This document shows positions 1,127 through 49,977 of a stretch of 64,000 nt of DNA, one piece after another. Origin of the DNA: an uncultured Eggerthella sp. (GTDB taxonomy: Bacteria; Actinomycetota; Coriobacteriia; Coriobacteriales; Eggerthellaceae); contig UPYK01000004.1 in assembly GCA_900538545.1 (NCBI GenBank), positions 30,098 through 94,097 of the forward strand, in the 5' to 3' direction. The translations under genes and the position numbers were made by a program. A model generated the notes under the pieces. It saw only the letters and a program-made list of their open reading frames with translations. It had not been told where the DNA came from and searched no databases. How positions within the stretch are numbered: the first letter of the stretch is position 1; the number at the start of each line of letters is the position of its first letter.

Positions 1127-2185
<1,059 letters not shown>

Positions 2186-7344: not shown

Positions 7345-7346
7345 GA

Positions 7347-8411: not shown

Positions 8412-8416
8412 GTCCC

Positions 8417-16373: not shown

Positions 16374-17386
16374 AGGAATATCTTTTCCTCCGCTTCGTAG
16401 GAATACGGAGCAACCGTACCTATTAGCGTAGGCCATAGCATAGGATCAAGACCATCACCTGGGCGTTTTGTTGTAAGGTTCTCTTCAGTAAACTCTTCTC
16501 CAGCTTGTATATCCCTCTTTGCAACAATGCTTCGTCTTGCAACGCTGCGATTGGCTAACTCCGAATCCGTAACCCTCTTCTCGGCACAACCGAGTGCCTT
16601 TTCGATATGCCTAATCGAAGAAATCATTTCACGGAGCTCATTGGGATCAAGGCTTGCCAAATGGTCAGGCCCCTCCATAGTCTTATCAAGCGTAAAATGT
16701 TTCTCGATAACACGCGCGCCGAGCGCAACTGCAGCTATTGGAACCTCAATACCAGACGTATGATCAGAATAACCAACATCAACACCTAATTCATAGTGTA
16801 GTTCGTTTAGAACAAGAAGATTCACGTCTTCATAAGGCGTTGGATATTGCGTGTTGCAATGAAGAAGTGTTATGGAATCGCCGCCATGTTCTTTGAGAAC
16901 ACCCAATGCGGCCTTGATCTCTGGAAGAGTAGCCATACCGCACGACATGATTATCGGAAGACCATAAGAAGCTGATTGTACTAAGTATGGATAATTATTC
17001 AATTCTCCTGAGGGTATCTTGATAAAAGAAATACCGATATCCTCAACAAGAAATCGCGAACTATCTTCGTCGAATGCGGTTGCTGAAAACTCAATACCTA
17101 TCAAGTCGCAGTAATGCTTGAGCTCAGCAAAATCCTCATAGCTCAATTCGAGCCTTTTTAACATATCCAATTGGCTCTCATCGCCACCAGTTGTCTTTTT
17201 CTGATAATCAGCTTTCTCAGCCTGTCTTGAAACAAGTGCTTCAGATTTAAATGCTTGAAATTTAACTACATCGGCACCGGCTTCTTTGGCAGCCATCGCG
17301 AGCTGTTTCGCCAGACTAAGACTACCGTTGTGATTTACGCCAGCTTCCGCAATCACCAATGTATGGCGAGCATTCGTATCAGCCAT
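16370..17386 (-). CDS. neuB: N-acylneuraminate-9-phosphate / nonulosonic acid synthase
   Basis: VIAEAGVNHNGSLSLAKQL...VKFQ, the NeuB TIM-barrel signature, plus a C-terminal SAF/antifreeze-like domain. Confidence 0.9.
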   Translation of the reverse strand: MADTNARHTLVIAEAGVNHNGSLSLAKQLAMAAKEAGADVVKFQAFKSEALVSRQAEKADYQKKTTGGDESQLDMLKRLELSYEDFAELKHYCDLIGIEFSATAFDEDSSRFLVEDIGISFIKIPSGELNNYPYLVQSASYGLPIIMSCGMATLPEIKAALGVLKEHGGDSITLLHCNTQYPTPYEDVNLLVLNELHYELGVDVGYSDHTSGIEVPIAAVALGARVIEKHFTLDKTMEGPDHLASLDPNELREMISSIRHIEKALGCAEKRVTDSELANRSVARRSIVAKRDIQAGEEFTEENLTTKRPGDGLDPMLWPTLIGTVAPYSYEAEEKIFL

Positions 17387-18008
17387 AAATCCCCACTACC
17401 TTTTGGTTCTCTTTAACATCACCCAAAACAACAGCTCCTGCTCCAACGAGCGCTGAATCGCCGAGTGTCACGCCTTGGATAACAACCGCGTTGGCCCCAA
17501 CAAAAGTGAATTTTCCTGCCTGTACGTTCCCACATAATGTTGCATTGACTGCCACATGGGAAAAATCGCCTAAACAGCAGTCATGCTCGATGACTGCACC
17601 CGAATTAACAATGGTCATAGCACCTATGTTCGTATTTGAATTGACGACCGCAAGCTTGCCGATGAAAGAGCCTTCCTCAATAATCGCATCATTCGCAACA
17701 ACGGCCGATGGATCTATGATAGGGGGAAATGCGAAACCAAGGCTTTTAGCACGGCTAAACAACGTCTCTCTTAATCTTGACTTGCCCAAGTAACCAACAG
17801 TGACCGCAGCGAGCGTGATTCCGCTCTTGAATATCGCATCTAAATCATCATCGGAGCCAATCGTTGTATACTCTTTGTAACTTGTAGTAGGTTCCTGATC
17901 GATAAACCCCGCAATTTCATACTGCCCCATTCGTTCGATAGCGTCGACCACTGAGTGGGCATGTCCCCCGCCGCCAATAAGTACTATCTTTTCTTTTCCT
18001 GTACTCAT
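17379..18008 (-). CDS. NeuD/PglD-family sugar N/O-acetyltransferase
   Basis: N-terminal IVLIGGGGHAHSV Rossmann-like part followed by hexapeptide repeats. Typical size of about 209 aa. Confidence 0.8.
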   Translation of the reverse strand: MSTGKEKIVLIGGGGHAHSVVDAIERMGQYEIAGFIDQEPTTSYKEYTTIGSDDDLDAIFKSGITLAAVTVGYLGKSRLRETLFSRAKSLGFAFPPIIDPSAVVANDAIIEEGSFIGKLAVVNSNTNIGAMTIVNSGAVIEHDCCLGDFSHVAVNATLCGNVQAGKFTFVGANAVVIQGVTLGDSALVGAGAVVLGDVKENQKVVGIYG

Positions 18009-18076
18009 ATTTTTCCTAGTTCAATATTGTGCCTCTATTGCATAAATTAAATAGATTCCTCACGGCTGCTCTACTG

Positions 18077-19249
18077 CTATTGCTGAGAGCTGATCTCTTT
18101 GAGAACTTGCACAACACGATCGATCTCTTTTGCAGTCAAATTCGTACTACAAGGAACATTGACAATTTGTGTGCGATACTTTCTTGCTTGTTCAACGCAA
18201 TACTCTAAAGAACCCGCATATGGTTTTTGATCTGGAATGATACCCCAGATAGGGCGCGATTGGATGTTGTTCGAACTTAGCTGCTCGATAATGTCATCTC
18301 GGGAAAAATCGTCCCCTTCGCAAACAATGCTATAGAACCATTTATTACTCCGGATATCTGGGCGGAATCCTAGAACAGCTAGATTCTCTAGAGGAGCAAT
18401 TTCGTGGACATAGTATTCATGATTCTTGTTTTTGGTCTCAATAAATGATTCCAGCTGTTCAAGCTGCGCGATGCCCAATGCCGCCTGCAAATTGGTCATA
18501 CGGTAGTTATAGCCGATCTCATCATGCTCAAAATATACAACATCGCTTTTCGCTTGCGTAGTAAGATGCCTGGCATGATCAAGAAGTTCTTGATCATCGG
18601 AGACGATCATTCCACCACCCCCCGTGGTGATGATCTTATTCCCATTGAACGAATAAACCCCTATAGTTCCTATCGTTCCTGCATATTTTCCTTCGTATTG
18701 ACCTGTTGTGTAGTACGAACCTAGCGCTTCTGTTGCATCTTCTATTACCTTGATATTGTACCTATCGGCAATCGCCATGATCGCTTCCATATCAGCCATG
18801 TTCCCAAAAACATGCACCACCACCAGCACGCGCACTGGCCGATCAGTTTGATCGTGGATCAGCACTCCATCTGTGAACGTGCATTCTTCTTCGCAGAATC
18901 GCTCAAGCTTAATAGGATCTATACACAAGGAAGAATCGCAATCGAGAAACATCGGTTCAGCATTCATATACCGAATTGGATTTGCTGCAGCGATGAATGT
19001 TAGAGCTGGCACAAGAACTAAATCGTCAGATGTAACGCCAAGGACCATGAGAGCTATATGAAGACCTGCGGTGCCGCTTTGACAAGCGACGGCCCCTTTC
19101 GCATTGACATATTCAGAGATATTCTCTTCAAACTGGCTCACATAAGGTCCTCCAGTCGATACCCATTCAGTTTCAACAGCCGTTGTTACCAGTTCAAGCT
19201 CTCTGCCCTTCAGATTAGGAACTGATAAAGGAATGAAGTCGGTAGTCAT
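18077..19249 (-). CDS. DegT/DnrJ/EryC1/StrS-family PLP-dependent nucleotide-sugar aminotransferase
   Basis: Family-typical sequence throughout, including the conserved lysine region (SFNGNKIITTGGGGMIVS). Confidence 0.85.
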   Translation of the reverse strand: MTTDFIPLSVPNLKGRELELVTTAVETEWVSTGGPYVSQFEENISEYVNAKGAVACQSGTAGLHIALMVLGVTSDDLVLVPALTFIAAANPIRYMNAEPMFLDCDSSLCIDPIKLERFCEEECTFTDGVLIHDQTDRPVRVLVVVHVFGNMADMEAIMAIADRYNIKVIEDATEALGSYYTTGQYEGKYAGTIGTIGVYSFNGNKIITTGGGGMIVSDDQELLDHARHLTTQAKSDVVYFEHDEIGYNYRMTNLQAALGIAQLEQLESFIETKNKNHEYYVHEIAPLENLAVLGFRPDIRSNKWFYSIVCEGDDFSRDDIIEQLSSNNIQSRPIWGIIPDQKPYAGSLEYCVEQARKYRTQIVNVPCSTNLTAKEIDRVVQVLKEISSQQ

Positions 19250-19290
19250 ACTGGTCTCCTTGCGCTCGATTACAAATCGGCAAGCCGTGA

Positions 19291-20280
19291 TTAGATATTG
19301 TAGATGTCTGTTTTGTAGCGATCGATATTGTCCCTAAGAAAGTCAATCGTTTCAGCAAGACCCTGCGTAAAAGAATACTTTGGCTGCCAATCAGTCAGCT
19401 TCAAAATCTTTTCATTTGACCCGAGCAAACGGTTGACCTCGCTTTTTTCAGGACGAAGGCGCTCCTCATCACATACGATGCACGCATTTGGATTAATCTG
19501 CCTGATCAACTCTTCCGCAAGCTCGCCAATGGATATTTCCTGTTGAGTAGCAATGTTGATCTCTTCGCCTATGGTCTTCGGTGATTCGTATATATCGATA
19601 AACCCATTTGCAGTGTCTTTGACGTAATTAAAATCTCTTGTTGGAGTCAATGACCCTAGTTCGATCTCCTCTTTCCCTGCAAGCAATTGCGTGATGATCG
19701 TTGGAATAACAGCACGTGCCGACTGTCTTGGACCATAAGTGTTGAACGGTCGAACAATGGTCACAGGCAGATCAAAGGAACGGTAAAACGATTCAGCCAA
19801 TCTATCTGCACCGATCTTGGTCGCAGAATAAGGCGATTGCCCCTGGTAAGGATGATTCTCATCAATAGGGACGTATTGTGCTGTTCCATATACTTCCGAA
19901 GTTGACGTTACTAACACTCTGTCTAAATCAAGCTTTCTTGCTGCTTGAAGGACATTCAAAGTGCCTTTGATATTCGTGTCCACGTATGTATCTGGAGAAT
20001 GGTAACTAAACGGAATCGCAATAAGAGCCGCAAGATGGAAAACCGCATCGCAGCCCTTCATCGCCTCCAAAACGCCATTAGGGTCACGCACGTCACCAGC
20101 AAAGACTTCCACATGCTCCATAATGTCGTTTGGCAGATCCTCAAGCCATCCCCAATTATTGAACGAGTTATACAGAATGAAAGCTCTGACATCATAACCA
20201 CGCTTGACTAGCTCTTCAGTCAAATGGCTTCCGATAAATCCTTCTGCTCCTGTAACAAGAATCTTTTTTGGCATGTTCAT
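19291..20280 (-). CDS. NAD-dependent nucleotide-sugar 4,6-dehydratase/epimerase (extended SDR)
   Basis: ILVTGAEGFIGSHL, TSTSEVYG, YSATK motifs. Sits immediately upstream of the aminotransferase, as in LegB/PseB-like or CDP-sugar dehydratase arrangements. Confidence 0.8.
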   Translation of the reverse strand: MNMPKKILVTGAEGFIGSHLTEELVKRGYDVRAFILYNSFNNWGWLEDLPNDIMEHVEVFAGDVRDPNGVLEAMKGCDAVFHLAALIAIPFSYHSPDTYVDTNIKGTLNVLQAARKLDLDRVLVTSTSEVYGTAQYVPIDENHPYQGQSPYSATKIGADRLAESFYRSFDLPVTIVRPFNTYGPRQSARAVIPTIITQLLAGKEEIELGSLTPTRDFNYVKDTANGFIDIYESPKTIGEEINIATQQEISIGELAEELIRQINPNACIVCDEERLRPEKSEVNRLLGSNEKILKLTDWQPKYSFTQGLAETIDFLRDNIDRYKTDIYNI

Positions 20281-20317: not shown

Positions 20318-22135
20318 TTATTCGTCGAGCTCATAAAGGGAAACGCTGCGTTTTTTTCCAAAGGTTTGATAAGCCCTTTCAAACTGCTCAACTTCCCTGA
20401 TCTGCTGGTAGATACTTTCTGGATCTTTGCTAAAAGACCTCGCATTCGAATAATCGAAATACAACAGATCAGGGTTATCTTTTAAATATTGCGCTAAGGT
20501 CTCAGAAGTATTCAAGAGAGGAAGGATATCGTTATAAAGCGTAAACCCATTCTCATATTCTCCTGCGACAATCTTCCCATCTGCAATTTCTCCAAGCTCA
20601 ATCATAGCCTCTTTCTCAGTATAAGTCTGATTAAGAACGTTGTAATTCAAAACTAGACCAGTATTAATAGCAATACAGATCAAAACCGAAGCAAAGAGCG
20701 AACAAACTTGAATCTTGTATTTCTTCGTTAACACACCGCCCGCAAACACCACAACGATTATGCTCGAAAGTATGCAATTGATCAGCAACAACACAACATC
20801 AAAATCAGAATAGTCAAGTCGCGAAAAAGTCGGACTGTTCGCACGGAACAGACGATAATACGTCACATAGATCATTACCACGAGCGAAACAGCCGTCATC
20901 AAGCAGACAGCGATCTTACCAACTGGACTACTTTTGCTGGTTTTGTTCATTTTCGTAAGACCCAAATAGCAACAATAGAACAATAATAGTAGCGTTGGAA
21001 GAATCACAACTGCTTTCCGAAGAACAAAATCATCACTTACAACCGTCTGAGCAAAAAACCCGACCATGGTCATCAGCAACACTAAAATCGGCCCACCTGT
21101 GGCTTTAAAAGCCTGTCTAAACAGAGGGATGAGGCAAACGAATACTATGCCCATTATTGGGAGAAGATAGAATAACGCATTCGACAGGAAAAACGCACGA
21201 ATGTTCCTCAGCAGATTCTCTGCCCCCATTGCATATGCTCCTGCACTTTGTCCCGAGGATTCAAAAATAAGAACGCTGTTTATCGCATTAGCTATCGGCG
21301 TAGTATCCCAGACGCACCAGTAGTAAATACTTGCCAAAAATAAAGCTAGACCAGCACCGATAAGACCAAAAAGGACCAACGACCCGCCTGCACGCTTACC
21401 TTGAGTTGCAAAAACATAAGCAGCATAAGCCAAAACAGGTATGCCGATGAATAGATTCGTCACATAGACGAAAAGAATCGAGGCAAAAGCAAGGAATCCT
21501 ACTAATAGACCCTTCATACGGATCGAAATGCTTGGCTTAATCAAGCAATAGATGATCAGTTGAACCAACAAAAGCCGAGAAATACTTGGCTCAACAGCCT
21601 TGGTTGCATTGAAAAAGACAAAGCTTGCTAGCAAAGCAACGACCAGAAGAAGCGCCATTATTGCGGCATTCTTATCTTCTCTACCATAAGCTTTTCGTAA
21701 CTCATTGATGGTCAAGCAGAAGAGAATCAAGATAAGATAGCCAATAAAGACAACGCCTATTCTCAATCCGAAATAATTATCTCCGAAGATCAATAAAGAT
21801 AACGCTGTGAAAAAATTCCCCACCACATTGCAGATAACATGAGACTGCATAAGGAATTCATATTGCCCGGCATAATAATCATTAGGATTGATCGAGCCAA
21901 AATTGATCAGATTCAATGCAAGGTTCGCATAGGTACCTTCATCTATTGGTTGATAGGCTGCAACACCCCAAGGTGGCAAATCCGATTCGAGAAATAGAAC
22001 ACGAGAAAAATATACCAGAGTTATCAGTGTATAAAACGCAATGCTCTTCCAGTTCTTCTTCATGCTGCCAACCAAACCAGCAGAAGACGACCTAGCATGT
22101 TTCCCATGAGTCTTATGTATCGAAAAGCTATTCAA
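20318..22135 (-). CDS. GT-C-fold membrane glycosyltransferase (PMT/ArnT/GT39-like) with C-terminal soluble domain
   Basis: 605 aa. The N-terminal ~450 aa are polytopic with loop features of dolichyl/undecaprenyl-phosphate-sugar-dependent GT-C enzymes, and the C-terminal ~150 aa are soluble. The start is uncertain: TTG at 22135 or ATG at 22063. Confidence 0.5.
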   Translation of the reverse strand: MNSFSIHKTHGKHARSSSAGLVGSMKKNWKSIAFYTLITLVYFSRVLFLESDLPPWGVAAYQPIDEGTYANLALNLINFGSINPNDYYAGQYEFLMQSHVICNVVGNFFTALSLLIFGDNYFGLRIGVVFIGYLILILFCLTINELRKAYGREDKNAAIMALLLVVALLASFVFFNATKAVEPSISRLLLVQLIIYCLIKPSISIRMKGLLVGFLAFASILFVYVTNLFIGIPVLAYAAYVFATQGKRAGGSLVLFGLIGAGLALFLASIYYWCVWDTTPIANAINSVLIFESSGQSAGAYAMGAENLLRNIRAFFLSNALFYLLPIMGIVFVCLIPLFRQAFKATGGPILVLLMTMVGFFAQTVVSDDFVLRKAVVILPTLLLLFYCCYLGLTKMNKTSKSSPVGKIAVCLMTAVSLVVMIYVTYYRLFRANSPTFSRLDYSDFDVVLLLINCILSSIIVVVFAGGVLTKKYKIQVCSLFASVLICIAINTGLVLNYNVLNQTYTEKEAMIELGEIADGKIVAGEYENGFTLYNDILPLLNTSETLAQYLKDNPDLLYFDYSNARSFSKDPESIYQQIREVEQFERAYQTFGKKRSVSLYELDE

Positions 22136-22176: not shown

Positions 22177-23958
22177 TCACCATTCTGGCATAAATGCTTT
22201 CTGTTGTTCGTCTGGCAAGAAGGGATACATCTCTTCCAGCGCTGGGGTTGAAAACGATCCATCTTCTAGCATTTTGCTCATTAGTTTGGGTACGAGCGGA
22301 TCATTGATGCGCTGATCGATCTCCAACAGCACTCTTCCATTGTATTTGGCAAAATCAGCAAGTGTGCTATTAAGTTCCATATTCGTTCGGCAATGCAAAT
22401 ATCCAAACCCGAACAACTCAGCTACAGATTTAAACGATGGAAAGCTCACTCCTGTTTCCTTAGTACATCCGATAAAGAGCCCATCAAAATAATTTAAACT
22501 TGTCTGACGAATTGCACTGTACCCCTCGTTTGCAAAAATAACGATCTTGATGGGCAGATTATAATGGCGAATAGTCTGTAGCTCTTGAAGGTTCATCATT
22601 ATTGTGCCATCACCTGTGACACATATCACTTCACGACCTGATGCAACACAGGCACCAATAGCCGAAGGCAAATCGAAGCCCATCGCCCCTGCGCCGTAAT
22701 TTGTAATGACGCGCTGATCTTTTTTCTCTTTTCCAACTTGAACCTTCACAGAACAAGCAGTGTTCATGCCCAAGCAGACAATTGCATCATCGGACATAAC
22801 ATCATTGAGCTCCTGCCAAAACCGATAGGCGCCAACACGCTCATCATCCTCAGTATTCTTGATTCCCTCGAACGGATCGAGCGCATCATAGACCGTCTGA
22901 CAATAATCCAACCATTGCGAAGGAGCCTCCAGCCTTTGATCGAGATCGTTCATGTTCTGCAGGAATTGTTTAACATCTGTGCATACTACATGGTCAACAC
23001 TAAGGCCTGGCTTCTTCGACTCTGTTTCATCGACATCTACCATGATGATCTTTGCATTTGGTGCAAATTTTTCTTGCACGAACCCTGTCTGCTTAAAACC
23101 AAGACTGTTCCCAACAGCTATTATCAAATCAGCATTCTGAAGAATATAGTTTCCTGCACGAGGTCCAATATTGCCCGATAAGCCAAAGAATAGAGGATGC
23201 TCGTTATAGTAAATATCTGCCACATGTGCCCCGCCCACAATAGGGACATTATTGGCATTGATGAACGCATCGAGCTCATCTAGTGCATCTCCCGCAATTA
23301 CACCCGATCCCACAAGAACGCAAGGGCGTTCCGCGTTCAGAATCTCTTCAACAACATAATCCAACTCTTTATCTGAAAGCGAACTAGGCTCATTGGAGGG
23401 AACGTATTCGACAAGATCGTCAGTTTCGACAAGGGCGCTTTGCACATTAAGCGGAATATCAAGCCAAACAGGCCCTCTGCGACCCTCCATCGCAATCGCA
23501 TACGCTTTCTCGACTTCTGCCTTAATCGTGAGTGGGTCGATTATGGTTTTGGCATATTTTGTCATATTGCGAACAGAAGATACGATATCGCACTCTTGGA
23601 CCCCACGATACCTTAACGGTAAACCCGAACTGTATACTGAGATGTCATATCTGACCTGCCCTGACAGCACAATCATTGGAATACTATCGGTCCAGGCACC
23701 CAATACCCCAGTGATAGCATTCGTAGCGCCAGGACCACTCGTGACACATACAAGTGCAGGCCTTCCACCTATACGTGCGTAGGCATCAGCCGCCATGGAG
23801 CAAGACTGCTCATGATGCATGAAATACTTATTTATGTCATCGTTAAGAGCCAAAGCATTATCAAGATGCATGGCTCCGCCACCGACGACAGCGAAGCAAT
23901 CCGTGACCCCCAAATCGGACAAGGTACTCATCACGATATCGGCTGCACGTTTTTTCAT
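22177..23958 (-). CDS. thiamine-pyrophosphate-dependent enzyme, acetolactate-synthase-large-subunit-like
   Basis: N-terminal TPP_enzyme_N (GVTDCFAVVGGGAMHLDNAL...CVTSGPGATNAITGV), a central domain and a C-terminal TPP-binding domain (GDGTIMMNLQEL). 593 aa. Confidence 0.8.
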   Translation of the reverse strand: MKKRAADIVMSTLSDLGVTDCFAVVGGGAMHLDNALALNDDINKYFMHHEQSCSMAADAYARIGGRPALVCVTSGPGATNAITGVLGAWTDSIPMIVLSGQVRYDISVYSSGLPLRYRGVQECDIVSSVRNMTKYAKTIIDPLTIKAEVEKAYAIAMEGRRGPVWLDIPLNVQSALVETDDLVEYVPSNEPSSLSDKELDYVVEEILNAERPCVLVGSGVIAGDALDELDAFINANNVPIVGGAHVADIYYNEHPLFFGLSGNIGPRAGNYILQNADLIIAVGNSLGFKQTGFVQEKFAPNAKIIMVDVDETESKKPGLSVDHVVCTDVKQFLQNMNDLDQRLEAPSQWLDYCQTVYDALDPFEGIKNTEDDERVGAYRFWQELNDVMSDDAIVCLGMNTACSVKVQVGKEKKDQRVITNYGAGAMGFDLPSAIGACVASGREVICVTGDGTIMMNLQELQTIRHYNLPIKIVIFANEGYSAIRQTSLNYFDGLFIGCTKETGVSFPSFKSVAELFGFGYLHCRTNMELNSTLADFAKYNGRVLLEIDQRINDPLVPKLMSKMLEDGSFSTPALEEMYPFLPDEQQKAFMPEW

Positions 23959-23988
23959 AAGTGATACCCCTGTTCAGTATTAGTCATC

Positions 23989-24900
23989 TTATTGATATCT
24001 TTGTACCCATTCGGGCATCGTCTCTTTTTCAAACTCAATCTGCCGTTTGATACCCTCATTTAATGAGGCAAATTCTGCAGGTAAACCAGTTTCGTCGTTT
24101 AGTCGATTCACTGACGCAGTATATTCTTTGTTCAGGCCTGGACTAGAGACTTGCACGCTCAAATCCGAGTTCATGGCATCTATAACCGTTTGCGCTATCT
24201 CACTCAAGAGCACTGGGGATCCTGATGCCACGTTATAATCACGGTATTGAGGCTTATTGTGAATAAAATAGCCTATGATCTTGGCAAGATCATAGACATG
24301 AAGATAATCGAATTTGCAGTCTTGCCTGATCGTTATATCTCTCCCCAGCAAGATGCTCCGAATACAATGGGTTATGAATTTTGAATCGTGATCATAAGGA
24401 CCAAAGCAAGCAAACAATCGCAAGTTGGTCACGTTATCGCTGCTCTGAGCCAAGGAATTCATGATGAATTTTGCTTCGCCATACGCATCAACAGGAACCG
24501 AATTCGCTACTTCTTCTTCTTCAATCTGTTGAATATCACGACGCTTGTCATATTCCGCGCCTGAGCCCAGATATAAGATATGCGAGCAAGAATTTCGTTG
24601 TCGAAAGATATTCATGAAGCTCTTCAGCGAGGCTTCGAACATATCTTTATCGCCGTCGGCTTCAGGATTCTTAACAGGATTCGGATTTGCTAAATGCACT
24701 ATCACATCTACCTGATGATCATCAACATAACGAGCTATCGCATCTGCGTCGAGTAAATCAAGCTCAGCTCGAGGTGGAGTCAAAAGATTGCAATTCTCGC
24801 CGATAAGGGGTGCAATATTGCGTCCAACAAATCCTGAACCGCCGGTTAGTAATACGACTGGCCGATCTAGAAACTGCCTCTCCTCGGCTTCTTGAATCAT
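23989..24900 (-). CDS. NAD-dependent epimerase/reductase (SDR family)
   Basis: LLTGGSGFVGRNI Rossmann motif. ~300 aa, typical of nucleotide-sugar 4-ketoreductases and epimerases. ATGA overlap with the upstream gene. Confidence 0.7.
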   Translation of the reverse strand: MIQEAEERQFLDRPVVLLTGGSGFVGRNIAPLIGENCNLLTPPRAELDLLDADAIARYVDDHQVDVIVHLANPNPVKNPEADGDKDMFEASLKSFMNIFRQRNSCSHILYLGSGAEYDKRRDIQQIEEEEVANSVPVDAYGEAKFIMNSLAQSSDNVTNLRLFACFGPYDHDSKFITHCIRSILLGRDITIRQDCKFDYLHVYDLAKIIGYFIHNKPQYRDYNVASGSPVLLSEIAQTVIDAMNSDLSVQVSSPGLNKEYTASVNRLNDETGLPAEFASLNEGIKRQIEFEKETMPEWVQRYQ

Positions 24901-25982
24901 AACTTGCCCTCCAAGCGCTGGGTTGCGACCTGCATCTTATTAAGCTCACCAATGTCTATCCAAGAGTTCTCAGGGATGGGGAATACTCCCACTTTTCCGC
25001 CCCCTTGCATACAGCGTTTTACGATATCGGGGAAATCAATCGCCTCTTCTTCCCCAATGCAATCCAAGACATGGGGCTCCACAATATAAACTCCCGTACT
25101 AACGAGGAATGAGAACTCAGGTTTTTCTTTCAAACCTGTTACATATCCATCGTCATCTGTCTCGATAACCCCATAAGGAATAGAAGTGTTGACCATGGCG
25201 CTCACATAAGTGATATCGTCTCCAAGTTCTTTATGGGTCTGATAAGCGCACGCCAGATCATCGTCGATCAAGATGTCACAGTTCGAAACGATAAACGTTG
25301 AGTCTATATGCCCTTTAAGCAAAGCCAGTCCGCCACCCGTACCTCTAAACTCTTTTTCAGTGAGGAAATGTACGGAGTAATCCGTATCGGCCCCTTCAAA
25401 ATACGACTTGACCATGTCGGCCTTATGATTCAGGATGAACCAAACTTCTCTGCACCCTCGAGAATAGAACTGTTCGATGATGCGCTCAGCAATGCTTGTG
25501 TCTCCAATAGGCACCAAAGCTTTAGGCAGGATCTTCGTATAAGGATAAAGACGCGTGCCTTTACCTCCTGCCATAATCACTAGAGGAACGCCAGCTAGAG
25601 CTTCCTCCAACATCATCAAATCGTCTTCACTATTGAATGCCAGCATGAGAAGCTTTTTTGCTTCATCAACAAGAGGATAAACAATATAGGGATGGGTCTT
25701 TTTTGCTGAATTGATCTCAGCTTCAGATTTAAAACAGACTGGGTTTGGGTTCATCGCTTGAACAACAGGACTTGCCAAATCGCCATCTTCTAAGAAAAAA
25801 TGACGCATGTCGCCGTTGGTAAACAGACCCAAAAGACTATTGTCTGAATCAATAACAGCAACAGCAGGAGCATGATTTTTGCTCATAAGCTCTATCGCGT
25901 CACGAACACTTGCGTCTTTGCCAACCGTATTATCTAACCCATTTTGCATAATCTTAATCCTCGAACTTACAGCACTTGCCAA
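24897..25982 (-). CDS. CBS-domain-containing sugar-phosphate nucleotidyltransferase (PtmE-like)
   Basis: Two N-terminal CBS repeats (VRDAIELMSKNHAPAVAVID...) fused to an NTP-transferase domain (LVIMAGGKGTRLYPYTKILPKALVPI). Confidence 0.75.
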   Translation of the reverse strand: MASAVSSRIKIMQNGLDNTVGKDASVRDAIELMSKNHAPAVAVIDSDNSLLGLFTNGDMRHFFLEDGDLASPVVQAMNPNPVCFKSEAEINSAKKTHPYIVYPLVDEAKKLLMLAFNSEDDLMMLEEALAGVPLVIMAGGKGTRLYPYTKILPKALVPIGDTSIAERIIEQFYSRGCREVWFILNHKADMVKSYFEGADTDYSVHFLTEKEFRGTGGGLALLKGHIDSTFIVSNCDILIDDDLACAYQTHKELGDDITYVSAMVNTSIPYGVIETDDDGYVTGLKEKPEFSFLVSTGVYIVEPHVLDCIGEEEAIDFPDIVKRCMQGGGKVGVFPIPENSWIDIGELNKMQVATQRLEGKL

Positions 25983-25991
25983 GCGCGGTTA

Positions 25992-26768
25992 TTACCACAC
26001 TTTCCAAGGAGCACGGCGGCCGGTCCAAAGTTCCTGAAGCTGCTCGCGCTCGCGCTGCGTATCCATGCACTTCCAGAAACCAGGATGACGATAGCAAGAC
26101 AGCTTGCCTTCGTCGGCAAGAACAGCAAGGACATCCTCTTCAAAGACTGAATCATCGCCGCCAATATAGTCGAACACTGCTGGCTCGCAAACCATGAAAC
26201 CGCCGTTGATCACCGAGCCATCAACATTCTTCTTCTCTCTGAAGGTCGATATCTTTCCATTGTCGTCGATATCAAGAATGCCTTTGCTCTGCCCAATCGA
26301 TACACCACTCAGCGTAACGATCGAATCAGATTTCTCGTGCGTCTCGAGCAGTTTCGCTAAATCGATATCTGCAACGCCATCACCGTAAGTGAGCATGAAC
26401 GGCTCATCGTTCACGTACTGCTTGATGCGTTTGATGCGCCCACCGGTCATGGTGCTATAGCCCGTATCAGCCACGGTTACACGCCATGGTTCAGCCTGGG
26501 AGGAATGTACGGTAACTTCTTTTGATCCGCCGCGATAATCGAAGGTGACATCGGTATGCTGCAAGTAATAATCATCGAAGTACTCTTTGATCTTGTGCTG
26601 CTTATAACCTGCACAGATGATGAAGTCAGTAAAACCCTGTGCTGCGTAGATCTTCATGATGTGCCAAAGAATAGGCCTGCTTCCGATTTCGATCATCGGC
26701 TTAGGGCGCAGGTGGCTCTCTTCTGAGATCCTTGTTCCAAATCCGCCTGCTAAGATTACTACCTTCAT
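25992..26768 (-). CDS. rfbF: glucose-1-phosphate cytidylyltransferase
   Basis: VVILAGGFGTRISEESHLRPKPMIEIGSRPILWHIMKIY is near-identical in pattern to enterobacterial RfbF/DdhA. 258 aa. Confidence 0.85.
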   Translation of the reverse strand: MKVVILAGGFGTRISEESHLRPKPMIEIGSRPILWHIMKIYAAQGFTDFIICAGYKQHKIKEYFDDYYLQHTDVTFDYRGGSKEVTVHSSQAEPWRVTVADTGYSTMTGGRIKRIKQYVNDEPFMLTYGDGVADIDLAKLLETHEKSDSIVTLSGVSIGQSKGILDIDDNGKISTFREKKNVDGSVINGGFMVCEPAVFDYIGGDDSVFEEDVLAVLADEGKLSCYRHPGFWKCMDTQREREQLQELWTGRRAPWKVW

Positions 26769-26789: not shown

Positions 26790-27995
26790 TCATCGAACCA
26801 AAACGTGAATATGTTCGTTGATACCTGCCATATTATCGTTCATCTGCTGTAATGAATCAAATCTCATGAATATGATTCCGAGTGCTTTATTCGCACCATC
26901 AAAGGATTCGATCTGCTCGCCTTCTTGTTCATAAAGAACCGTACGATAGACGCTTGGCGAAAGAACCTCATCGATCTCTATACCATCGAAAATGCCGTCT
27001 TGAAGAGAATGCAAGACATGGGTCGCATAGGCGTCATGCGACAGATCGTAATCGAGGTTTTCGGGCGTTTCTCCCATTGCGCAGAGAACGTTAGCTTCAA
27101 CAAGGTCGATTCCCGATGCGTCGCTCAATTGCACGGGAATCATATTGCCCCCTGCACGTGAACCTAGCTCGATGATATAGGGAGTATTCTCTTTTCCCAG
27201 TATCACTTCCACATTCATCTCACCAAAACGTATACCAAGCGTCCTCACGAGACGCTGAAGAGCATCTTTTATGCTCTTCTTTTGCTCAGCAGAAAGGTTC
27301 GTGGGTGTTTTCTTACCTGTCGGAACTAATTCCACAGCCGCATCACGCACGCAATCCATAAGTCCCCAGAAACGAACCTCTCCATCAATAACGAAGATAT
27401 CGCCCCCGATTACGCAAGGGTACTCCTTCTCGATATACTCTTCAGCAATAAGAACACCGTTATTGTTGATCTTATCGGCAGCTTCTACCGCCAAGACGAA
27501 CGATGCCTGGTCTTCAACAATGGAAACGCCTTTGCTTCCTGATGAATCGGTAGGCTTCACCACGATCGGAAGAGTGAAGCTCTGGAGCGATTCCCATGTC
27601 TTTTCTAGGTCGTCTTTTGCCGAGAACGCCATCGAAGCGGGGCAAGGGAAGCCCTGTTGCTTTAGGTGTTCGCGAAAAAGATGCTTCTGAGACATCGTTT
27701 CGACCGCTGAGAGCGGATTGGTCGGCAAGCCCAATTCTTCGGCAACAGCAGCCGCGATAGGACTTGCGGGGTCAGTCGCATACGCCAGAACGCCTTCGAC
27801 GCGCTCCTTACGAGCAACTTCAAGAACAGCATCTCTATCGGTAGTGCTTACCGGATAATAAACATCTGCGATGAATTGCCCTGGATTATCAGGCAGATAA
27901 TCGCAGAGAACCGTACGATAGCCGAGACGCTTCGCCGTCTCGATCGCAATAAGCTGATGAGGCGATCCTCCGAGCATGAGCAAAGATCTAGTCAT
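26790..27995 (-). CDS. ATP-grasp domain ligase
   Basis: LLMLGGSP pre-ATP-grasp region and a PIVVKPTDSSGSKGV ATP-binding block. Start at the ATG at 27995 with a GGAGG RBS 6 nt upstream, 4 nt after the aminotransferase stop; the longer ORF to 28055 is unlikely. Confidence 0.65.
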   Translation of the reverse strand: MTRSLLMLGGSPHQLIAIETAKRLGYRTVLCDYLPDNPGQFIADVYYPVSTTDRDAVLEVARKERVEGVLAYATDPASPIAAAVAEELGLPTNPLSAVETMSQKHLFREHLKQQGFPCPASMAFSAKDDLEKTWESLQSFTLPIVVKPTDSSGSKGVSIVEDQASFVLAVEAADKINNNGVLIAEEYIEKEYPCVIGGDIFVIDGEVRFWGLMDCVRDAAVELVPTGKKTPTNLSAEQKKSIKDALQRLVRTLGIRFGEMNVEVILGKENTPYIIELGSRAGGNMIPVQLSDASGIDLVEANVLCAMGETPENLDYDLSHDAYATHVLHSLQDGIFDGIEIDEVLSPSVYRTVLYEQEGEQIESFDGANKALGIIFMRFDSLQQMNDNMAGINEHIHVLVR

Positions 27996-29130
27996 GCGCT
28001 GCCTCCAACAGGATCTCGCATATCCGGTCAACGTCTTCGAGGGAAAGATCGGCATACAGAGGCAAGGTTATGACCTTAGAAGCTACTCGCTTGGCGATTG
28101 GCGTAGTATCGCTCGAGTACATCTCTCGATAACAGGCAAAATCAGTAACGAGAGGATAGAAATACTTGCGTGCTCCTATGCCCTGTTCGGCCAACTTATC
28201 GAATATCTCATCGCGCGAGGCTCCAAAGGCGTCGGAATCCACCACAACAGGAAGGTAGGCGTAATTGTGTTCCACATTCGCTGGAGGGATACACAAAGAC
28301 AGTCCCGGCACATCTGAAAGAAGTTCGTAATACCTTTCGGCGACCTGTTTGCGTTTCGCTATCTCACTTGCCACGTGGTGCAGATTGCAAAGCCCCATTG
28401 CAGCAGCAAATTCGTTCATCTTCGCATTGCCACCCACAAAATCACACGACTCAGAGTCTTTCATGCCAAAGTTCGCATGACTTACCAGCTCTACTGCAAG
28501 CTGGGGATCCTTAAAAGAAGCTGCTCCACCTTCAATGGTGTTGAACACCTTCGTAGCATGGAAGCTGAACATGCTCGCGTCGCCAAAACGCGCTACCGAA
28601 ACACCATCTTCCTTCACGCCAAAGGCATGCGCCGCATCATAGATGACTTTCAAATCGTATTTTTTTGCAATGCGCTCGATCTGTTCATGATCGCAAAGAT
28701 TCCCGTATACATGGACGGGCACGATCGCGCAGGTGTTCTCCGTAATAAGCGACTCGATCTTCTCAGGGTCGATCGTATAATCGCTCGAACGAATATCGCA
28801 AAAAACCGGCTTGAGACCTTTGCGAGCCAATGCATTGGTCGTGCTCACAAAGGTAAAAGGAGTGGTGATAACTTCATTACGCCCATCATGCCCCAATTCA
28901 AGGGCTTCAACAATGTTTTCGAGCGCCAAATGCCCATTGGTGAAAAGCGCAAGATTTGACGTGTCCAAAAAACCTTGCAAGGCAGTTTCGAGTTCGCGAT
29001 GTTTTTCCCCTCGGTTAGTAAGCCATCTGCTCTCCCAAAGCGACGCTATTTCAGCGCAATACTCTTCATAAGGAGGCATCGAAGGGCGTGTTACTACTAT
29101 CTGCGAACTAGAAATCGGTATCATCCTCAT
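27988..29130 (-). CDS. DegT-family PLP-dependent aminotransferase, probably dTDP-4-keto-6-deoxyhexose 4-aminotransferase
   Basis: DegT/DnrJ family sequence. Positioned between rfbA and the ATP-grasp gene. Start uncertain: ATG at 29130 or 29124. Confidence 0.8.
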
Positions 29131-30025
29131 AAGAATCGGAAAGAAGGCTTCCGCGCACCCTGCGCTCATATACCGCATAGAGATATTGGCCGTAGGGAGA
29201 TTTCGCATATTTGTCGGCTGCGGCTTTCAGGGTATCGCCGTCGATCCAGCTGTTGTTGTAAGCGATCTCTTCTAGCGATGCGATCTGAATGCCCTGGTTC
29301 TTTTCTACAACACGTACGTATTCCGTTGCCGCATAGAGGCTTTCCATGGTGCCAGCATCGAACCAAGCAGAACCGCGATGCAGCAGCTCTACCGACAACG
29401 AGCCATCTTCCAAATACATGCGATTCAGGTCAGTGATCTCAAGCTCCCCACGAGAAGAAGGAAGGATCTGTTTCGCCCATTCAACTGCGCGGCTATCGTA
29501 AAAATAGAGCCCTGTCACTGCATAATTACTTTTAGGATTCTCCGGCTTTTCCTCAAGAGACACAGCCATGCCATCCTCATCGAACTCAACGATGCCAAAA
29601 CGCTGCGGATCAGGGACATAATAGCCGAATATCGTTGCGCCATAGTCTTTTGTTGCAGCTCTCCTCAAGCGAGAAGTTAAGCCGCCACCGTAGAAAATGT
29701 TATCGCCAAGAGTAAGCGCAACAGAGTCATCTCCGATGAAATCCTCGCCGATGAGCAAAGCCTGTGCTAAGCCCTCAGGATCCAGCTGTTCTTTATATGA
29801 CAGACTCACCCCATATTGGGAGCCATCGCCGAGCAAGCGATGGAATTTTGGAAGATCGCGTGGCGAACTGATCACGAGAATATCTCGAATACCCGCCAAC
29901 ATAAGAATCGACAACGGATAGAAGATCATCGGCTTATCGTATACCGGTAGCAGTTGTTTTGAAGTGACCGAAGTGAGCGGATAGAGACGCGTTCCACTGC
30001 CACCCGCAAGAATAATGCCCTTCAT
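29108..30025 (-). CDS. rfbA: glucose-1-phosphate thymidylyltransferase
   Basis: [18 protein letters not shown]...[16 protein letters not shown]-type sequence. Full-length RmlA. Confidence 0.9.
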
Positions 30026-31124: not shown

Positions 31125-31643
31125 TCAATTATTTTTATGAACCACTTCGAGGCCAATCGTTGCGGTTGTAGTTCTACCGAACATAGTCATTTCGATCAAT
31201 GCTCGCCTTTTATGTCGGTCGATCTTCTTGATGATCGCTTCCTGCCCGAATAACGGCCCTTGGGTAACCGTGATGGTCTCTCCTTCGATATAGCCCTCGC
31301 TCATGCGCACACAATAGGCATCATCAGTGAAGGCAACGATCCAGTCTTTCTCCTCTTCAGAAAGAGGCGTGATCTCATTCTTCTGGCCGTTCTGTCCCAA
31401 AAGGCGTGTAGTTGCTGGGACTTTCTTGAGTTCGCTCAGAAGCGCGAGGATCGAATCGGTGACCATGAACAGATACCCTGGAAAAAGCATGCGACGCACA
31501 CGCTTCCATTCTCCTTGGATCTTGCGCATCGTTTCGTATTCCGGAAGGAAAGCATCCTGCAGAATAGCAGGATCGATCATCTGTTTACACATATCTCGCA
31601 CGGCTACTTCTTGTCCGCTATTGACTTGAGCGACATACCACAT
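31125..31643 (-). CDS. NusG-paralog transcription antiterminator (UpxY/LoaP-like)
   Basis: NGN domain (MWYVAQVNSGQE..., LFPGYLFMV) and a C-terminal KOW motif (GETITVTQGPLFGQEAIIKKID). It is the first gene of the minus-strand glycan operon. Confidence 0.75.
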   Translation of the reverse strand: MWYVAQVNSGQEVAVRDMCKQMIDPAILQDAFLPEYETMRKIQGEWKRVRRMLFPGYLFMVTDSILALLSELKKVPATTRLLGQNGQKNEITPLSEEEKDWIVAFTDDAYCVRMSEGYIEGETITVTQGPLFGQEAIIKKIDRHKRRALIEMTMFGRTTTATIGLEVVHKNN

Positions 31644-32172: not shown

Positions 32173-32210
32173 AAAAAAAGCGGCCAGGGTTTTGCTTTAC
32201 CCTGACCGCT
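32173..32210 (-). terminator. rho-independent terminator of the SNF transporter gene
   Basis: 11-bp stem (AGCGGCCAGGG / CCCTGACCGCT, one mismatch), followed on the minus strand by a U7 tract. Confidence 0.55.
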
Positions 32211-32251
32211 CTGCGCATGCGTTGCTACGTTGAATCCGCTCTTTCGCTCGG

Positions 32252-49900: not shown

Positions 49901-49977
<77 letters not shown>

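What the first reader, a model, noticed from the sequence alone, without database searches (positions are those of the whole stretch)
26790..30025. dTDP-4-amino-6-deoxyhexose branch coupled to a third ATP-grasp ligase, with rmlB displaced ~27 kb away
rfbA, a DegT aminotransferase and an ATP-grasp gene are contiguous and translationally coupled: stop and start are 4 nt apart with a GGAGG RBS. No rmlC or rmlD is present, so the dTDP-4-keto intermediate is probably aminated (viosamine or Fuc4N-type) and the amine then acylated by the ATP-grasp enzyme. Such an enzyme could add an amino-acyl or other carboxylate group instead of the usual acetyl or formyl. The cognate dehydratase rmlB sits at the far 3' end of the operon (1127..2146), so the pathway is split across the locus.
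Basis: inference. Interest (0 to 1): 0.6.

Follow-up and report, generated by a model that had tools for sequence, protein, structure and literature searches.

The report
Amino-sugar branch with ATP-grasp N-acylating ligase

Summary
On the minus strand lie rfbA (30025..29108), a DesI-like DegT aminotransferase (about 29124..27988) and a 401-aa ATP-grasp gene (27995..26790). The ATP-grasp ATG overlaps the DegT stop by 8 nt, with GGAGG 6 nt upstream. A true rmlB sits at 2146..1127. No rmlC or rmlD is in the window.

- Of 79 loci from three phyla that encode a relative of the ATP-grasp, 65 also carry a DegT of the same subtype, usually immediately upstream.
- Twelve loci carry rmlA and rmlB without rmlC/D, three of them with a thymidylate kinase. 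None carries nonulosonic-acid genes.
- The predicted fold matches L-amino-acid ligases, not D-Ala-D-Ala ligase or carbamoyl-phosphate synthase.
- Relatives occur fused to GNAT acetyltransferases and to a second ligase that resembles the locus's other ATP-grasp gene (9709..8417).

The mechanism has a characterised precedent: B. cereus Pat/Pyl, where an ATP-grasp enzyme ligates 2-oxoglutarate to UDP-4-amino-FucNAc. The window's version appears to use a dTDP-hexose instead. The acyl group is unknown.

Verdict: a plausible new variant of a known kind, of moderate interest.

The parts
29108..30025 (-). rfbA/rmlA, glucose-1-phosphate thymidylyltransferase (makes dTDP-glucose)
   Evidence: TIGR01207 scores 460.8 bits against a 360.65 cut-off; PF00483 scores 229 bits.
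27988..29124 (-). DegT1, a DesI-like PLP sugar aminotransferase. The start is ATG 29124 (or 29130) and overlaps the rfbA stop.
   Evidence: PF01041 scores 311 bits. The best NCBIfam model is DesI TIGR04427 at 277 bits, below its 650 cut-off. The best PDB match is DesI 2po3, E 1.4e-54, aligned end to end with the FSFHATK motif. The start is inferred from homologue N-termini.
28002..28006 (-). GGAGG Shine-Dalgarno sequence, 6 nt upstream of the ATP-grasp ATG and inside the 3' end of DegT1
   Evidence: Read directly from the sequence.
26790..27995 (-). AG1, a 401-aa ATP-grasp carboxylate-amine ligase with an L-amino-acid-ligase-like fold. It is the proposed N-acylase of the 4-amino sugar.
   Evidence: Generic ATP-grasp Pfam hits. 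By sequence it matches PDB 4dim (E 1.2e-22) and BL00235 3vot (E 1e-19). The AF2 model has pLDDT 86.8. Foldseek top hits are 4dim, BL00235, BacD and RizA, with TM about 0.8. It is linked to a DegT1-type gene in 65 of 79 loci.
1127..2146 (-). rmlB, dTDP-glucose 4,6-dehydratase, about 25 kb downstream of AG1 (about 27 kb from rfbA) in the same orientation
   Evidence: TIGR01181 scores 466.7 bits against a 365.1 cut-off. It holds the same 3'-end position in all variants of the locus retrieved.
8417..9709 (-). AG2, a second L-amino-acid-ligase-like ATP-grasp and a probable partner of AG1. Its start overlaps the stop of the sugar transferase by 4 nt.
   Evidence: PF13535 and LAL_C2 hits. It is 25% identical to AG1, E 4e-25. 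AG2-type genes sit near AG1 in 19-21 of 79 loci. The natural fusion P0131 joins an AG1-like half to an AG2-like half. Metagenome gene callers give a 430-aa product.
9706..10515 (-). Small phosphoglycosyl transferase (Bac_transf). In related Coriobacteriia loci it lies directly between AG1 and AG2.
   Evidence: PF02397 scores 163 bits. The gene order is DegT1-AG1-BacTr-AG2 in L010 and L033; in L012 and L013 other genes intervene.
6274..7344 (-). AG3, a sugar-transfer-associated ATP-grasp (ATPgrasp_ST). Its relation to AG1 is unknown.
   Evidence: PF14397 scores 171.7 bits. ATPgrasp_ST genes occur in 33 of 79 AG1 loci.
31125..31643 (-). LoaP-type NusG paralogue, the first gene of the operon (processive antiterminator)
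   Evidence: NF033641 scores 178 bits against a 125 cut-off. A strong terminator-like hairpin at 32212..32177 closes the upstream gene.

Best explanation
The three genes form a branch that supplies a modified sugar to a long, LoaP-controlled surface-polysaccharide operon of a human-gut Coriobacteriia bacterium.

Proposed steps:
1. RmlA makes dTDP-glucose.
2. RmlB, encoded near the 3' end of the locus as found in the window, converts it to dTDP-4-keto-6-deoxyglucose.
3. The DesI-like aminotransferase DegT1 aminates C4, giving a dTDP-4-amino-4,6-dideoxyhexose. It is probably the gluco isomer, viosamine.
4. The ATP-grasp enzyme AG1 activates a carboxylic acid as an acyl phosphate, using ATP and Mg2+. 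It then transfers the acyl group to the sugar's 4-amino group to form an amide. The acid could be an amino acid or a 2-oxo or hydroxy acid.

The paralogue AG2 probably adds or extends a second acyl or aminoacyl unit.

Shown here: the identities of RmlA and RmlB, the DegT family and its nearest relative, the ATP-grasp fold class, and the conserved gene linkage.

Inferred: that dTDP is the carrier, the C4 stereochemistry, that the sugar amine is the acceptor, that acylation happens at the nucleotide-sugar stage (by analogy with B. cereus Pyl), and the identity of the acid.
For: **Enzyme identities**
- RmlA and RmlB pass curated equivalog cut-offs.
- DegT1 is closest to DesI, at 189 bits and full length with the PLP-lysine motif.

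**Coupling.** The DegT1 stop and the AG1 start overlap, with a GGAGG upstream. Thirteen of 31 other adjacent pairs overlap by 4 nt.

**AG1 fold**
- The AG1 model has pLDDT 86.8. It best matches the L-amino-acid ligases BL00235, BacD and RizA, with TM about 0.8.
- The ATP-grasp motifs (VVKPTDSSGSKG, EE, E..ELGSRAGGN) are invariant across the family.

**Conservation in 79 loci from other species, in three phyla**
- A DegT1-type gene (at least 40% identity) is present in 65 and lies immediately upstream of AG1 in 35.
- Pairwise identities of AG1 and DegT1 co-vary: Mantel r 0.78, p 0.001.
- rmlA and rmlB without rmlC/D occur in 12 loci, against 3 with the full rmlABCD set. A thymidylate kinase lies within the rmlA-rmlB-DegT1 block in L010, L013 and L033 (between rmlB and DegT1 in L010 and L033).
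- Minimal modules of DegT1-AG1-RfbA-RmlB occur in L007 and L008, with no other acyltransferase nearby.
- NeuB-, LegB- or LegC-like genes are present in 0 of 79.

**Fusions.** AG1-like domains occur fused to GNAT acetyltransferases (P0140, P0144), to a methyltransferase (P0186) and to second ATP-grasp ligases (P0125, P0131, P0206, P0221).

**Precedents**
- Enzymatic: B. cereus Pat/Pyl. [quoted passage not shown] 2014).
- Chemical: Qui4N carrying N-acetylglycyl, N-acetyl-D-alanyl or hydroxybutyryl-alanyl groups (PMC3210612).
Against: - There is no biochemical evidence.
- DegT1 scores below the DesI equivalog cut-off (277 against 650 bits), so its substrate and stereochemistry are not fixed by homology.
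- 56 of 79 AG1 loci have no rml gene within 10 kb. About 7 carry a PglF-, PseB- or FnlA-type UDP-GlcNAc dehydratase instead or as well. The family as a whole may therefore not be dTDP-specific.
- The order DegT1-AG1-PGT in some relatives mirrors the UDP-based Pat-Pyl-PGT layout. PGTs normally use UDP-sugars.
- rmlB is about 27 kb from rfbA, so the claim that it is the cognate dehydratase rests on absence of an alternative in the window.
- The window also encodes LegB, a second source of an NDP-4-keto-6-deoxy sugar.
- The most frequent neighbour of AG1 elsewhere, a protein of about 320 aa with no Pfam hit, is missing here.
- The Pyl sequence could not be retrieved, so homology between AG1 and Pyl is untested.
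Confidence: 0.55

Rival explanations
1. The chemistry is the same but the carrier differs. DegT1 and AG1 act on a UDP- or GDP-linked 2-acetamido-4-keto/4-amino-6-deoxy sugar, exactly as B. cereus Pat/Pyl do, or on the LegB product. RmlA and RmlB then serve another sugar of the repeat unit.
For: - The Pat/Pyl precedent is UDP-based (PMC11626204).
- The order DegT1-AG1-PGT in L010, L012 and L033 mirrors Pat-Pyl-PGT.
- An E. hirae plasmid cps locus has a PglF-like dehydratase, a DegT, an oxidoreductase, a PGT and an ATP-grasp. That ATP-grasp is 28.5% identical to AG1, E 7e-38.
- About 7 AG1 loci carry Polysacc_synt_2 dehydratases.
- LegB is present in the window.
Against: - The window has no PglF- or PseB-type dehydratase.
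- LegB has its own LegC and LegH partners.
- rfbA overlaps DegT1.
- Loci with rmlA and rmlB only, some with a thymidylate kinase, are the commonest precursor context: 12 loci, against about 7 with mostly distant UDP-GlcNAc dehydratases.
- Nonulosonic-acid genes are absent from all 79 other loci.
- DegT1 is nearer to DesI (277 bits) than to PseC (221) or LegC (165).
Confidence: 0.17
2. AG1 is a true amino-acid ligase. It makes a free dipeptide or acyl-amino acid, or extends an aminoacyl group already on the sugar. The first amide to the sugar is made by a different enzyme, such as AG2, AG3 or an acyltransferase.
For: - The closest solved folds are dipeptide-forming L-amino-acid ligases.
- 54 of 79 loci contain at least one further ATP-grasp gene.
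- Tandem ligase fusions exist.
Against: - In 25 of 79 loci AG1 is the only ATP-grasp. In 8 of those there is also no GNAT, LbH, PaaK-like or 320-aa partner, yet most of these 8 still have a DegT1-type gene adjacent.
- AG1, not AG2, is the gene translationally coupled to the aminotransferase.
Confidence: 0.13
3. AG1 amidates a sugar carboxylate (a uronic or nonulosonic acid) with an amine or amino acid, as the Cj1438 C-terminal ATP-grasp domain does on glucuronate in the C. jejuni capsule.
For: - Cj1438C is a characterised polysaccharide amidoligase (PMC11800379).
- A nucleotide-sugar dehydrogenase lies just outside the window's left edge.
- A legionaminic-acid module lies in the operon.
Against: [quoted passage not shown] AG1 shows no such Pfam hit.
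- AG1's conserved partner is an aminotransferase, not a dehydrogenase.
- No nonulosonic-acid genes occur in the other loci.
Confidence: 0.08
4. The adjacency has no functional meaning. AG1 is a housekeeping-type ATP-grasp enzyme (Ddl, PurT/PurK or CPSase paralogue) that happens to lie in the operon.
For: Weak generic hits to the CPSase_L_D2, Dala_Dala_lig_C and PurT models.
Against: - All such hits are far below the curated cut-offs.
- Linkage to DegT1 and to polysaccharide genes is conserved across three phyla.
- One relative is fused to a Wzx-type flippase.
Confidence: 0.03

Closest known systems
Pat/Pyl of Bacillus cereus ATCC 14579 (UDP-yelosamine pathway; Hwang et al. 2014 J Biol Chem, as cited in PMC11626204; genes BC_5273/BC_5272 per PMC4595770)
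   Same: A DegT-type 4-aminotransferase is encoded next to an ATP-grasp protein that uses ATP to ligate a carboxylic acid to the 4-amino group of a nucleotide-activated 6-deoxy sugar. Both lie in a surface-polysaccharide locus near a small phosphoglycosyl transferase.
   Different: - Pyl works on UDP-4-amino-FucNAc, which derives from UDP-GlcNAc through a PseB/PglF-type dehydratase. Here the precursor genes are rmlA and rmlB (dTDP-glucose), with no such dehydratase.
- Pyl's acid is 2-oxoglutarate. The acid here is unknown, and GNAT fusions in the family point to amino acids in at least some members.
- Sequence homology between AG1 and Pyl could not be tested.
L-amino-acid ligases BL00235 (PDB 3vot), BacD/YwfE (3vmm) and RizA (4wd3), and the uncharacterised 4dim protein
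   Same: Best matches by sequence and by predicted fold, over the full length (E 1e-19 to 1e-22; TM about 0.8). They share the ATP-grasp acyl-phosphate chemistry that forms an amide.
   Different: - Identity is only 16-22%.
- Those enzymes join two free amino acids and lie in antibiotic or orphan contexts.
- AG1 is embedded in polysaccharide loci and coupled to a sugar aminotransferase.
dTDP-viosamine/anthrose-type N-acylation (VioA/VioB, AntC/AntD; own knowledge)
   Same: The same scaffold route: RmlA, then RmlB, then a 4-aminotransferase, then N-acylation of dTDP-4-amino-4,6-dideoxyglucose.
   Different: There the acyl group comes from an acyl-CoA via a left-handed beta-helix acyltransferase. 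Here no such acyltransferase is adjacent, and an ATP-grasp ligase takes its place.
Cj1438 C-terminal amidoligase of the Campylobacter jejuni HS:2 capsule (PMC11800379)
   Same: An ATP-grasp enzyme that forms an amide on a capsule sugar.
   Different: - The polarity is reversed: there the sugar supplies the carboxylate.
[quoted passage not shown]
- It is fused to a glycosyltransferase.

Membership tests
RmlA (glucose-1-phosphate thymidylyltransferase) | Score above the curated equivalog cut-off of TIGR01207 | tested here: met
   460.8 bits against 360.65.
RmlB (dTDP-glucose 4,6-dehydratase) | Score above the curated equivalog cut-off of TIGR01181 | tested here: met
   466.7 bits against 365.1 for 2146..1127.
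DegT/DnrJ/EryC1 sugar aminotransferases | PF01041 domain and a PLP-binding lysine (not the histidine of the E1/ColD dehydrases) | tested here: met
   PF01041 scores 311 bits. The FSFHATK motif aligns with that of DesI. The RfbH model scores only 113 bits against a 423 cut-off.
DesI (dTDP-4-dehydro-6-deoxyglucose 4-aminotransferase) equivalog | Score above the TIGR04427 cut-off | tested here: not met
   277 bits against 650. DesI is still the best-scoring model and the best PDB match, so DegT1 is 'DesI-like' only.
ATP-grasp superfamily | ATP-grasp fold with conserved ATP- and Mg-binding motifs | tested here: met
   Pfam ATP-grasp_3, ATP-grasp_4 and CPSase_L_D2 score above their cut-offs. The predicted fold matches ATP-grasp enzymes. 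Family-invariant residues include K147, E185/E186, E263, E276 and R280.
L-amino-acid ligase (LAL) group | Full-length structural and sequence similarity to LALs, including the C-terminal domain | tested here: met
   4dim, 3vot, 3vmm and 4wd3 are the top Foldseek hits, with TM 0.73-0.82. PF18603 LAL_C2 is recorded for many close homologues but does not pass for AG1 itself.
L-amino-acid ligase (LAL) group | Joins two free amino acids into a dipeptide | not testable with these tools
   This needs an enzyme assay. The genomic context argues for a sugar amine as the acceptor.
Pat/Pyl-type NDP-4-amino-sugar N-acylation | ATP-grasp gene adjacent to a DegT 4-aminotransferase in a polysaccharide locus | tested here: met
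   There is an 8-nt overlap in the window. The pairing is conserved in 65 of 79 loci.
Pat/Pyl-type NDP-4-amino-sugar N-acylation | Precursor from UDP-GlcNAc via a PseB/PglF-type 4,6-dehydratase | tested here: not met
   No Polysacc_synt_2-type dehydratase is in the operon. rmlA and rmlB are present instead.
Pat/Pyl-type NDP-4-amino-sugar N-acylation | Sequence homology of the ligase to Pyl (BC_5272) | not tested
   The Pyl sequence and the 2014 paper could not be retrieved. The only proxy is an E. hirae ATP-grasp in a Pyl-like gene layout, which is 28.5% identical to AG1, E 7e-38.
Pat/Pyl-type NDP-4-amino-sugar N-acylation | ATP-dependent amide formation on the 4-amino group of the nucleotide sugar | not testable with these tools
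   This needs in vitro reconstitution.
   Ddl TIGR01205 scores 38 bits against 246. CPSase TIGR01369 scores 60 bits against 1027.

The most novel reading that the evidence does not exclude
AG1 founds a large, uncharacterised family of ligases that act on dTDP- (or other NDP-) 4-amino-6-deoxyhexoses. About 540 clusters at 50% identity score E <= 1e-30. The family is spread by horizontal transfer among gut Bacteroidota, Coriobacteriia and Bacillota. Together with AG2-type ligases and GNATs, these enzymes would build aminoacyl, N-acetyl-aminoacyl or dipeptidyl side chains on capsule sugars. That would supply the enzymology for the aminoacylated Qui4N and Qui3N residues reported in O-antigens (PMC3210612), for which the literature searches here found no assigned enzyme.
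Probability: 0.35. Interest if true: 0.6.

Novelty: new variant of a known kind. Interest (0 to 1): 0.4.

Why it matters
If correct, this assigns a testable function to a very widespread and unnamed ATP-grasp family in gut commensals. It would also extend the single characterised example of ATP-grasp N-acylation of a nucleotide amino sugar (B. cereus Pyl) from a UDP-HexNAc scaffold to a dTDP-hexose scaffold.

Acyl and aminoacyl decorations on 6-deoxy-amino sugars are immunodominant epitopes and phage receptors. Knowing the enzyme would allow such decorations to be predicted from sequence and the modified nucleotide sugars to be made enzymatically.

It does not overturn anything. The chemistry, the product class and one enzyme precedent already exist.

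Tried and rejected
**Literature searches that found no characterised orthologue of AG1**
- ATP-grasp combined with viosamine, Qui4N, vioA, O-antigen, legionaminic or bacillosamine.
- The Pyl precedent surfaced only indirectly, through a paper on PGTs.
- The 2014 Pyl paper is not held.

**Attempts to obtain a B. cereus Pyl sequence, all unsuccessful**
- A homologue search seeded with an E. hirae ATP-grasp.
- Plasmid tblastn.
- The B. cereus plasmid hit turned out to be a natural-product-type cluster.

**Other leads that went nowhere**
- The SugarBase preprint contained nothing relevant.
- The afdb50 fold library was unavailable.
- Rfam found only a tRNA in the window.
- The promoter and terminator scan inside the three-gene block gave counts no higher than chance.

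**Ideas considered and rejected**
- A 3,4-ketoisomerase followed by C3 amination. No isomerase-sized gene lies between rfbA and DegT1. The 219-aa gene seen in relatives is a thymidylate kinase, not an isomerase.
- DegT1 as an E1-type dehydrase. It keeps the PLP lysine, and the RfbH model scores low.
- RmlB being a mis-named UDP-GlcNAc dehydratase like Pdeg. Pdeg is PseB-like, not RmlB-like (PMC4514872).


Full report
**What is there**

All genes from 31643 down to 20 lie on the minus strand. They form one long polysaccharide locus of lower G+C (42-50%) than its flank (53-58%). The locus opens with a LoaP-type antiterminator: NF033641 scores 178 bits against a 125 cut-off. A strong terminator-like hairpin at 32212..32177 closes the upstream transporter gene.

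The gene order is as follows:
- a Wzz-like gene
- rfbA (30025..29108)
- DegT1 (about 29124..27988)
- AG1, an ATP-grasp gene (27995..26790)
- rfbF
- a CBS-nucleotidyltransferase
- an SDR
- an acetolactate-synthase-like TPP enzyme
- a legionaminic-acid module (LegB, LegC, LegH, LegI, LegG)
- glycosyltransferases, flippases and membrane proteins
- a small phosphoglycosyl transferase (10515..9706)
- AG2, a second ATP-grasp (9709..8417)
- an ornithine-cyclodeaminase-family protein
- AG3, an ATPgrasp_ST protein (7344..6274)
- rmlB (2146..1127)
- a GFO/IDH/MocA oxidoreductase

The exact AG1 protein occurs on at least 23 human-gut metagenome contigs. Its closest named relatives are from Collinsella.

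**Check of the observation**

rfbA and rmlB pass their curated equivalog cut-offs: 460.8 against 360.65 bits, and 466.7 against 365.1 bits.

The AG1 start codon (27995..27993) overlaps the DegT1 stop (27990..27988) in the string ATGACTAG. GGAGG lies 6 nt upstream of the ATG.

N-termini of homologues place the DegT1 start at ATG 29124 or 29130. DegT1 therefore overlaps the rfbA stop by 17-23 nt.

tblastn with RmlC and RmlD from Bacteroidota loci found neither gene in the window. Three ATP-grasp genes are indeed present. rmlB sits at the 3' end of the locus in every variant of the locus I could retrieve.

**What the proteins are**

DegT1 has a full PF01041 domain. Its best curated model is DesI, at 277 bits; this is below the 650-bit equivalog cut-off but ahead of PseC (221), ArnB (183) and WecE (136-166). 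Its best solved relative is DesI, PDB 2po3, E 1.4e-54. The two align end to end and share the FSFHATK PLP-lysine motif. DegT1 is thus an aminotransferase, not an E1-type dehydrase.

AG1 gives only generic ATP-grasp hits, far below the Ddl and CPSase cut-offs. By sequence it is closest to the uncharacterised structure 4dim and to the L-amino-acid ligase BL00235. An AlphaFold model (pLDDT 86.8) matches 4dim, BL00235, BacD/YwfE and RizA best, with TM up to 0.82. The nucleotide- and metal-binding motifs are invariant in the family.

AG2 is a distant paralogue of AG1: 25% identity, E 4e-25.

**Comparative evidence**

The AG1 family is large. At 50% clustering, 543 representatives score E <= 1e-30 and 4458 score E <= 1e-10. 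I fetched 79 loci from species-representative genomes of Coriobacteriia, Bacteroidota and Bacillota. I classified their ORFs by BLAST against the window's proteins.

- A DegT1-type gene (at least 40% identity) is present in 65 of 79 loci. It lies immediately upstream of AG1 in 35. Among 31 same-strand adjacent pairs, the commonest spacing is a 4-nt overlap (13 pairs).
- Pairwise identities of AG1 and DegT1 co-vary, with Mantel r 0.78 and p 0.001. Shared ancestry contributes to this figure.
- rmlA plus rmlB without rmlC/D occur within 10 kb in 12 loci. The full rmlABCD set occurs in 3.
- In L010, L013 and L033 a 219-aa thymidylate kinase (IAIEGLDGSGK motif) sits within the rmlA-rmlB-DegT1 block; in L010 and L033 it lies directly between rmlB and DegT1.
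- L007 and L008 carry a minimal block, DegT1-AG1-RfbA-RmlB, with no other ligase or acyltransferase nearby.
- No locus carries NeuB-, LegB- or LegC-like genes. AG1 is therefore not a nonulosonic-acid enzyme.
- PglF-, PseB- or FnlA-type dehydratases occur in about 7 loci, mostly several kilobases away.
- 56 loci have no rml gene within 10 kb. The family as a whole may not be restricted to dTDP sugars.

**Partners and fusions**

Other neighbours of AG1 across the 79 loci:
- a conserved protein of about 320 aa with no Pfam hit and a faint resemblance to the DegT C-terminus (45 loci; absent from the window)
- ATPgrasp_ST proteins (33 loci)
- GNAT acetyltransferases (23 loci)
- AG2-type ligases (19 loci)

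Natural fusions join AG1-like domains to several partners:
- GNATs (P0140, P0144)
- a methyltransferase (P0186)
- a Wzx-type flippase (P0162)
- second ATP-grasp ligases (P0125, P0131, P0206, P0221); P0131 joins an AG1-like half to an AG2-like half (29.5% identity to AG2, E 4e-70)

The GNAT fusions fit an acid that carries a free amine which is later acetylated, giving N-acetyl-aminoacyl groups. The tandem ligases fit two successive ligations.

In related Coriobacteriia the order is RfbA-RmlB-(Tmk)-DegT1-AG1-PGT-AG2 (L010, L033). In the window, about 16 kb of other sugar genes separate AG1 from PGT-AG2, and rmlB lies near the 3' end of the locus as held in the window (only a GFO oxidoreductase gene follows it there). 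The locus is therefore a mosaic of a module that is compact elsewhere.

**Comparison with what is known**

The product class is known chemically. Qui4N and Qui3N residues N-acylated with N-acetylglycyl, N-acetyl-alanyl or hydroxybutyryl-alanyl groups are documented in O-antigens (PMC3210612).

In B. cereus ATCC 14579 the aminotransferase Pat and the ATP-grasp protein Pyl make UDP-FucNAc-4N-(2)-oxoglutarate. Their genes lie just upstream of a small PGT (Hwang et al. 2014, as cited and discussed in PMC11626204; locus tags in PMC4595770).

I could not obtain the Pyl sequence or the paper. Homology between AG1 and Pyl is therefore untested. The only proxy comes from an Enterococcus hirae plasmid cps locus with a Pyl-like layout: a PglF-like dehydratase, a DegT, an oxidoreductase, a PGT and an ATP-grasp. 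That ATP-grasp is 28.5% identical to AG1 over its full length, E 7e-38.

The window differs from Pat/Pyl in two ways. Its precursor genes are rmlA and rmlB, with no UDP-GlcNAc dehydratase. Its acyl donor is unknown.

The C. jejuni amidoligase Cj1438C works with the opposite polarity and has a different ATP-grasp fold (PMC11800379).

**Verdict**

The carrier nucleotide, the C4 stereochemistry and the acid remain inferred.

I put 0.55 on the statement that AG1 N-acylates the dTDP-4-amino-4,6-dideoxyhexose made by RmlA, RmlB and DegT1. The main rival, at 0.17, is the same chemistry on a UDP- or GDP-linked HexNAc-derived sugar.

This is a new variant of a known kind and of moderate interest. It offers a clean, testable function for a very widespread unnamed family, but no new principle.

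Noticed in passing
window 15222..20280 and 24897..25982 (minus strand): A legionaminic-acid module is present. LegB scores 516 bits against 475, and LegC 467 against 420. It also has a NeuD/PglD-type acetyltransferase, a NeuB-type synthase, a hydrolysing 2-epimerase and a CBS-nucleotidyltransferase of the PtmE type. No CMP-nonulosonate synthetase (CTP_transf_3) appeared among the locus genes scanned.
   Followed up: partly
window 25992..26768, 22177..24900; L002 12007..13089; L086 11203..12534: rfbF (CDP-glucose synthase, 355 bits against 300) has no CDP-glucose 4,6-dehydratase beside it in the window. A variant of the same locus has a true one there (416 bits against 278). An RfbH/E1 dehydrase (691 bits against 423) lies just outside the window's left edge on the other strand. 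Together with the acetolactate-synthase-like TPP enzyme and the SDR, this looks like a YerE-type pathway for a branched 3,6-dideoxyhexose, scattered or partly lost.
   Followed up: partly
L009 7575..8540 and 44 other loci (downstream of AG1): A conserved protein of about 320 aa with no Pfam hit is the commonest downstream neighbour of AG1 elsewhere (45 of 79 loci). It faintly resembles the C-terminal part of DegT1 (tblastn E 0.004) and has a DegT-like 'CRKWFG' stretch. The window has no copy.
   Followed up: partly
L010 8207..8866, L033 2431..3090, L013: A thymidylate kinase gene lies within the rmlA-rmlB-DegT1-AG1 block in polysaccharide loci, directly between rmlB and the DegT1-AG1 pair in L010 and L033. 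This is an unusual place for tmk and hints at local dTDP/dTTP recycling.
   Followed up: partly
window 6274..9709 (minus strand): AG2, an ornithine-cyclodeaminase/mu-crystallin-family protein and an ATPgrasp_ST protein form a tight sub-block after the phosphoglycosyl transferase. The cyclodeaminase-family gene was found in none of the 79 other AG1 loci. It may make or reduce the acid that is attached.
   Followed up: no
P0125, P0131, P0140, P0144, P0162, P0186, P0206, P0221: Natural fusions join AG1-like ligases to a second ATP-grasp ligase, to GNAT acetyltransferases, to a SAM methyltransferase and to a Wzx-type flippase.
   Followed up: yes
L095 (Brachyspira hyodysenteriae plasmid pBhyoB78, 6069..7268): The swine-dysentery spirochaete's plasmid of about 32 kb encodes an AG1 homologue (31% identity, full length). 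It sits among a DegT gene, an acetyltransferase, a radical-SAM gene, three 'ATP-grasp fold amidoligase' genes and rhamnan-synthesis genes.
   Followed up: partly
window 3465..4922 and 12132..13469; 4910..6262, 10556..12112, 20318..22135: The locus has two flippase-like genes and three large proteins with no Pfam hit (450, 518 and 605 aa). G+C is 42-50% in the locus against 53-58% in the flank. The operon may be a composite of two polysaccharide modules acquired horizontally.
   Followed up: no
window 49904..49977 (minus strand): A single tRNA gene is the only Rfam match in the window at the gathering threshold.
   Followed up: no
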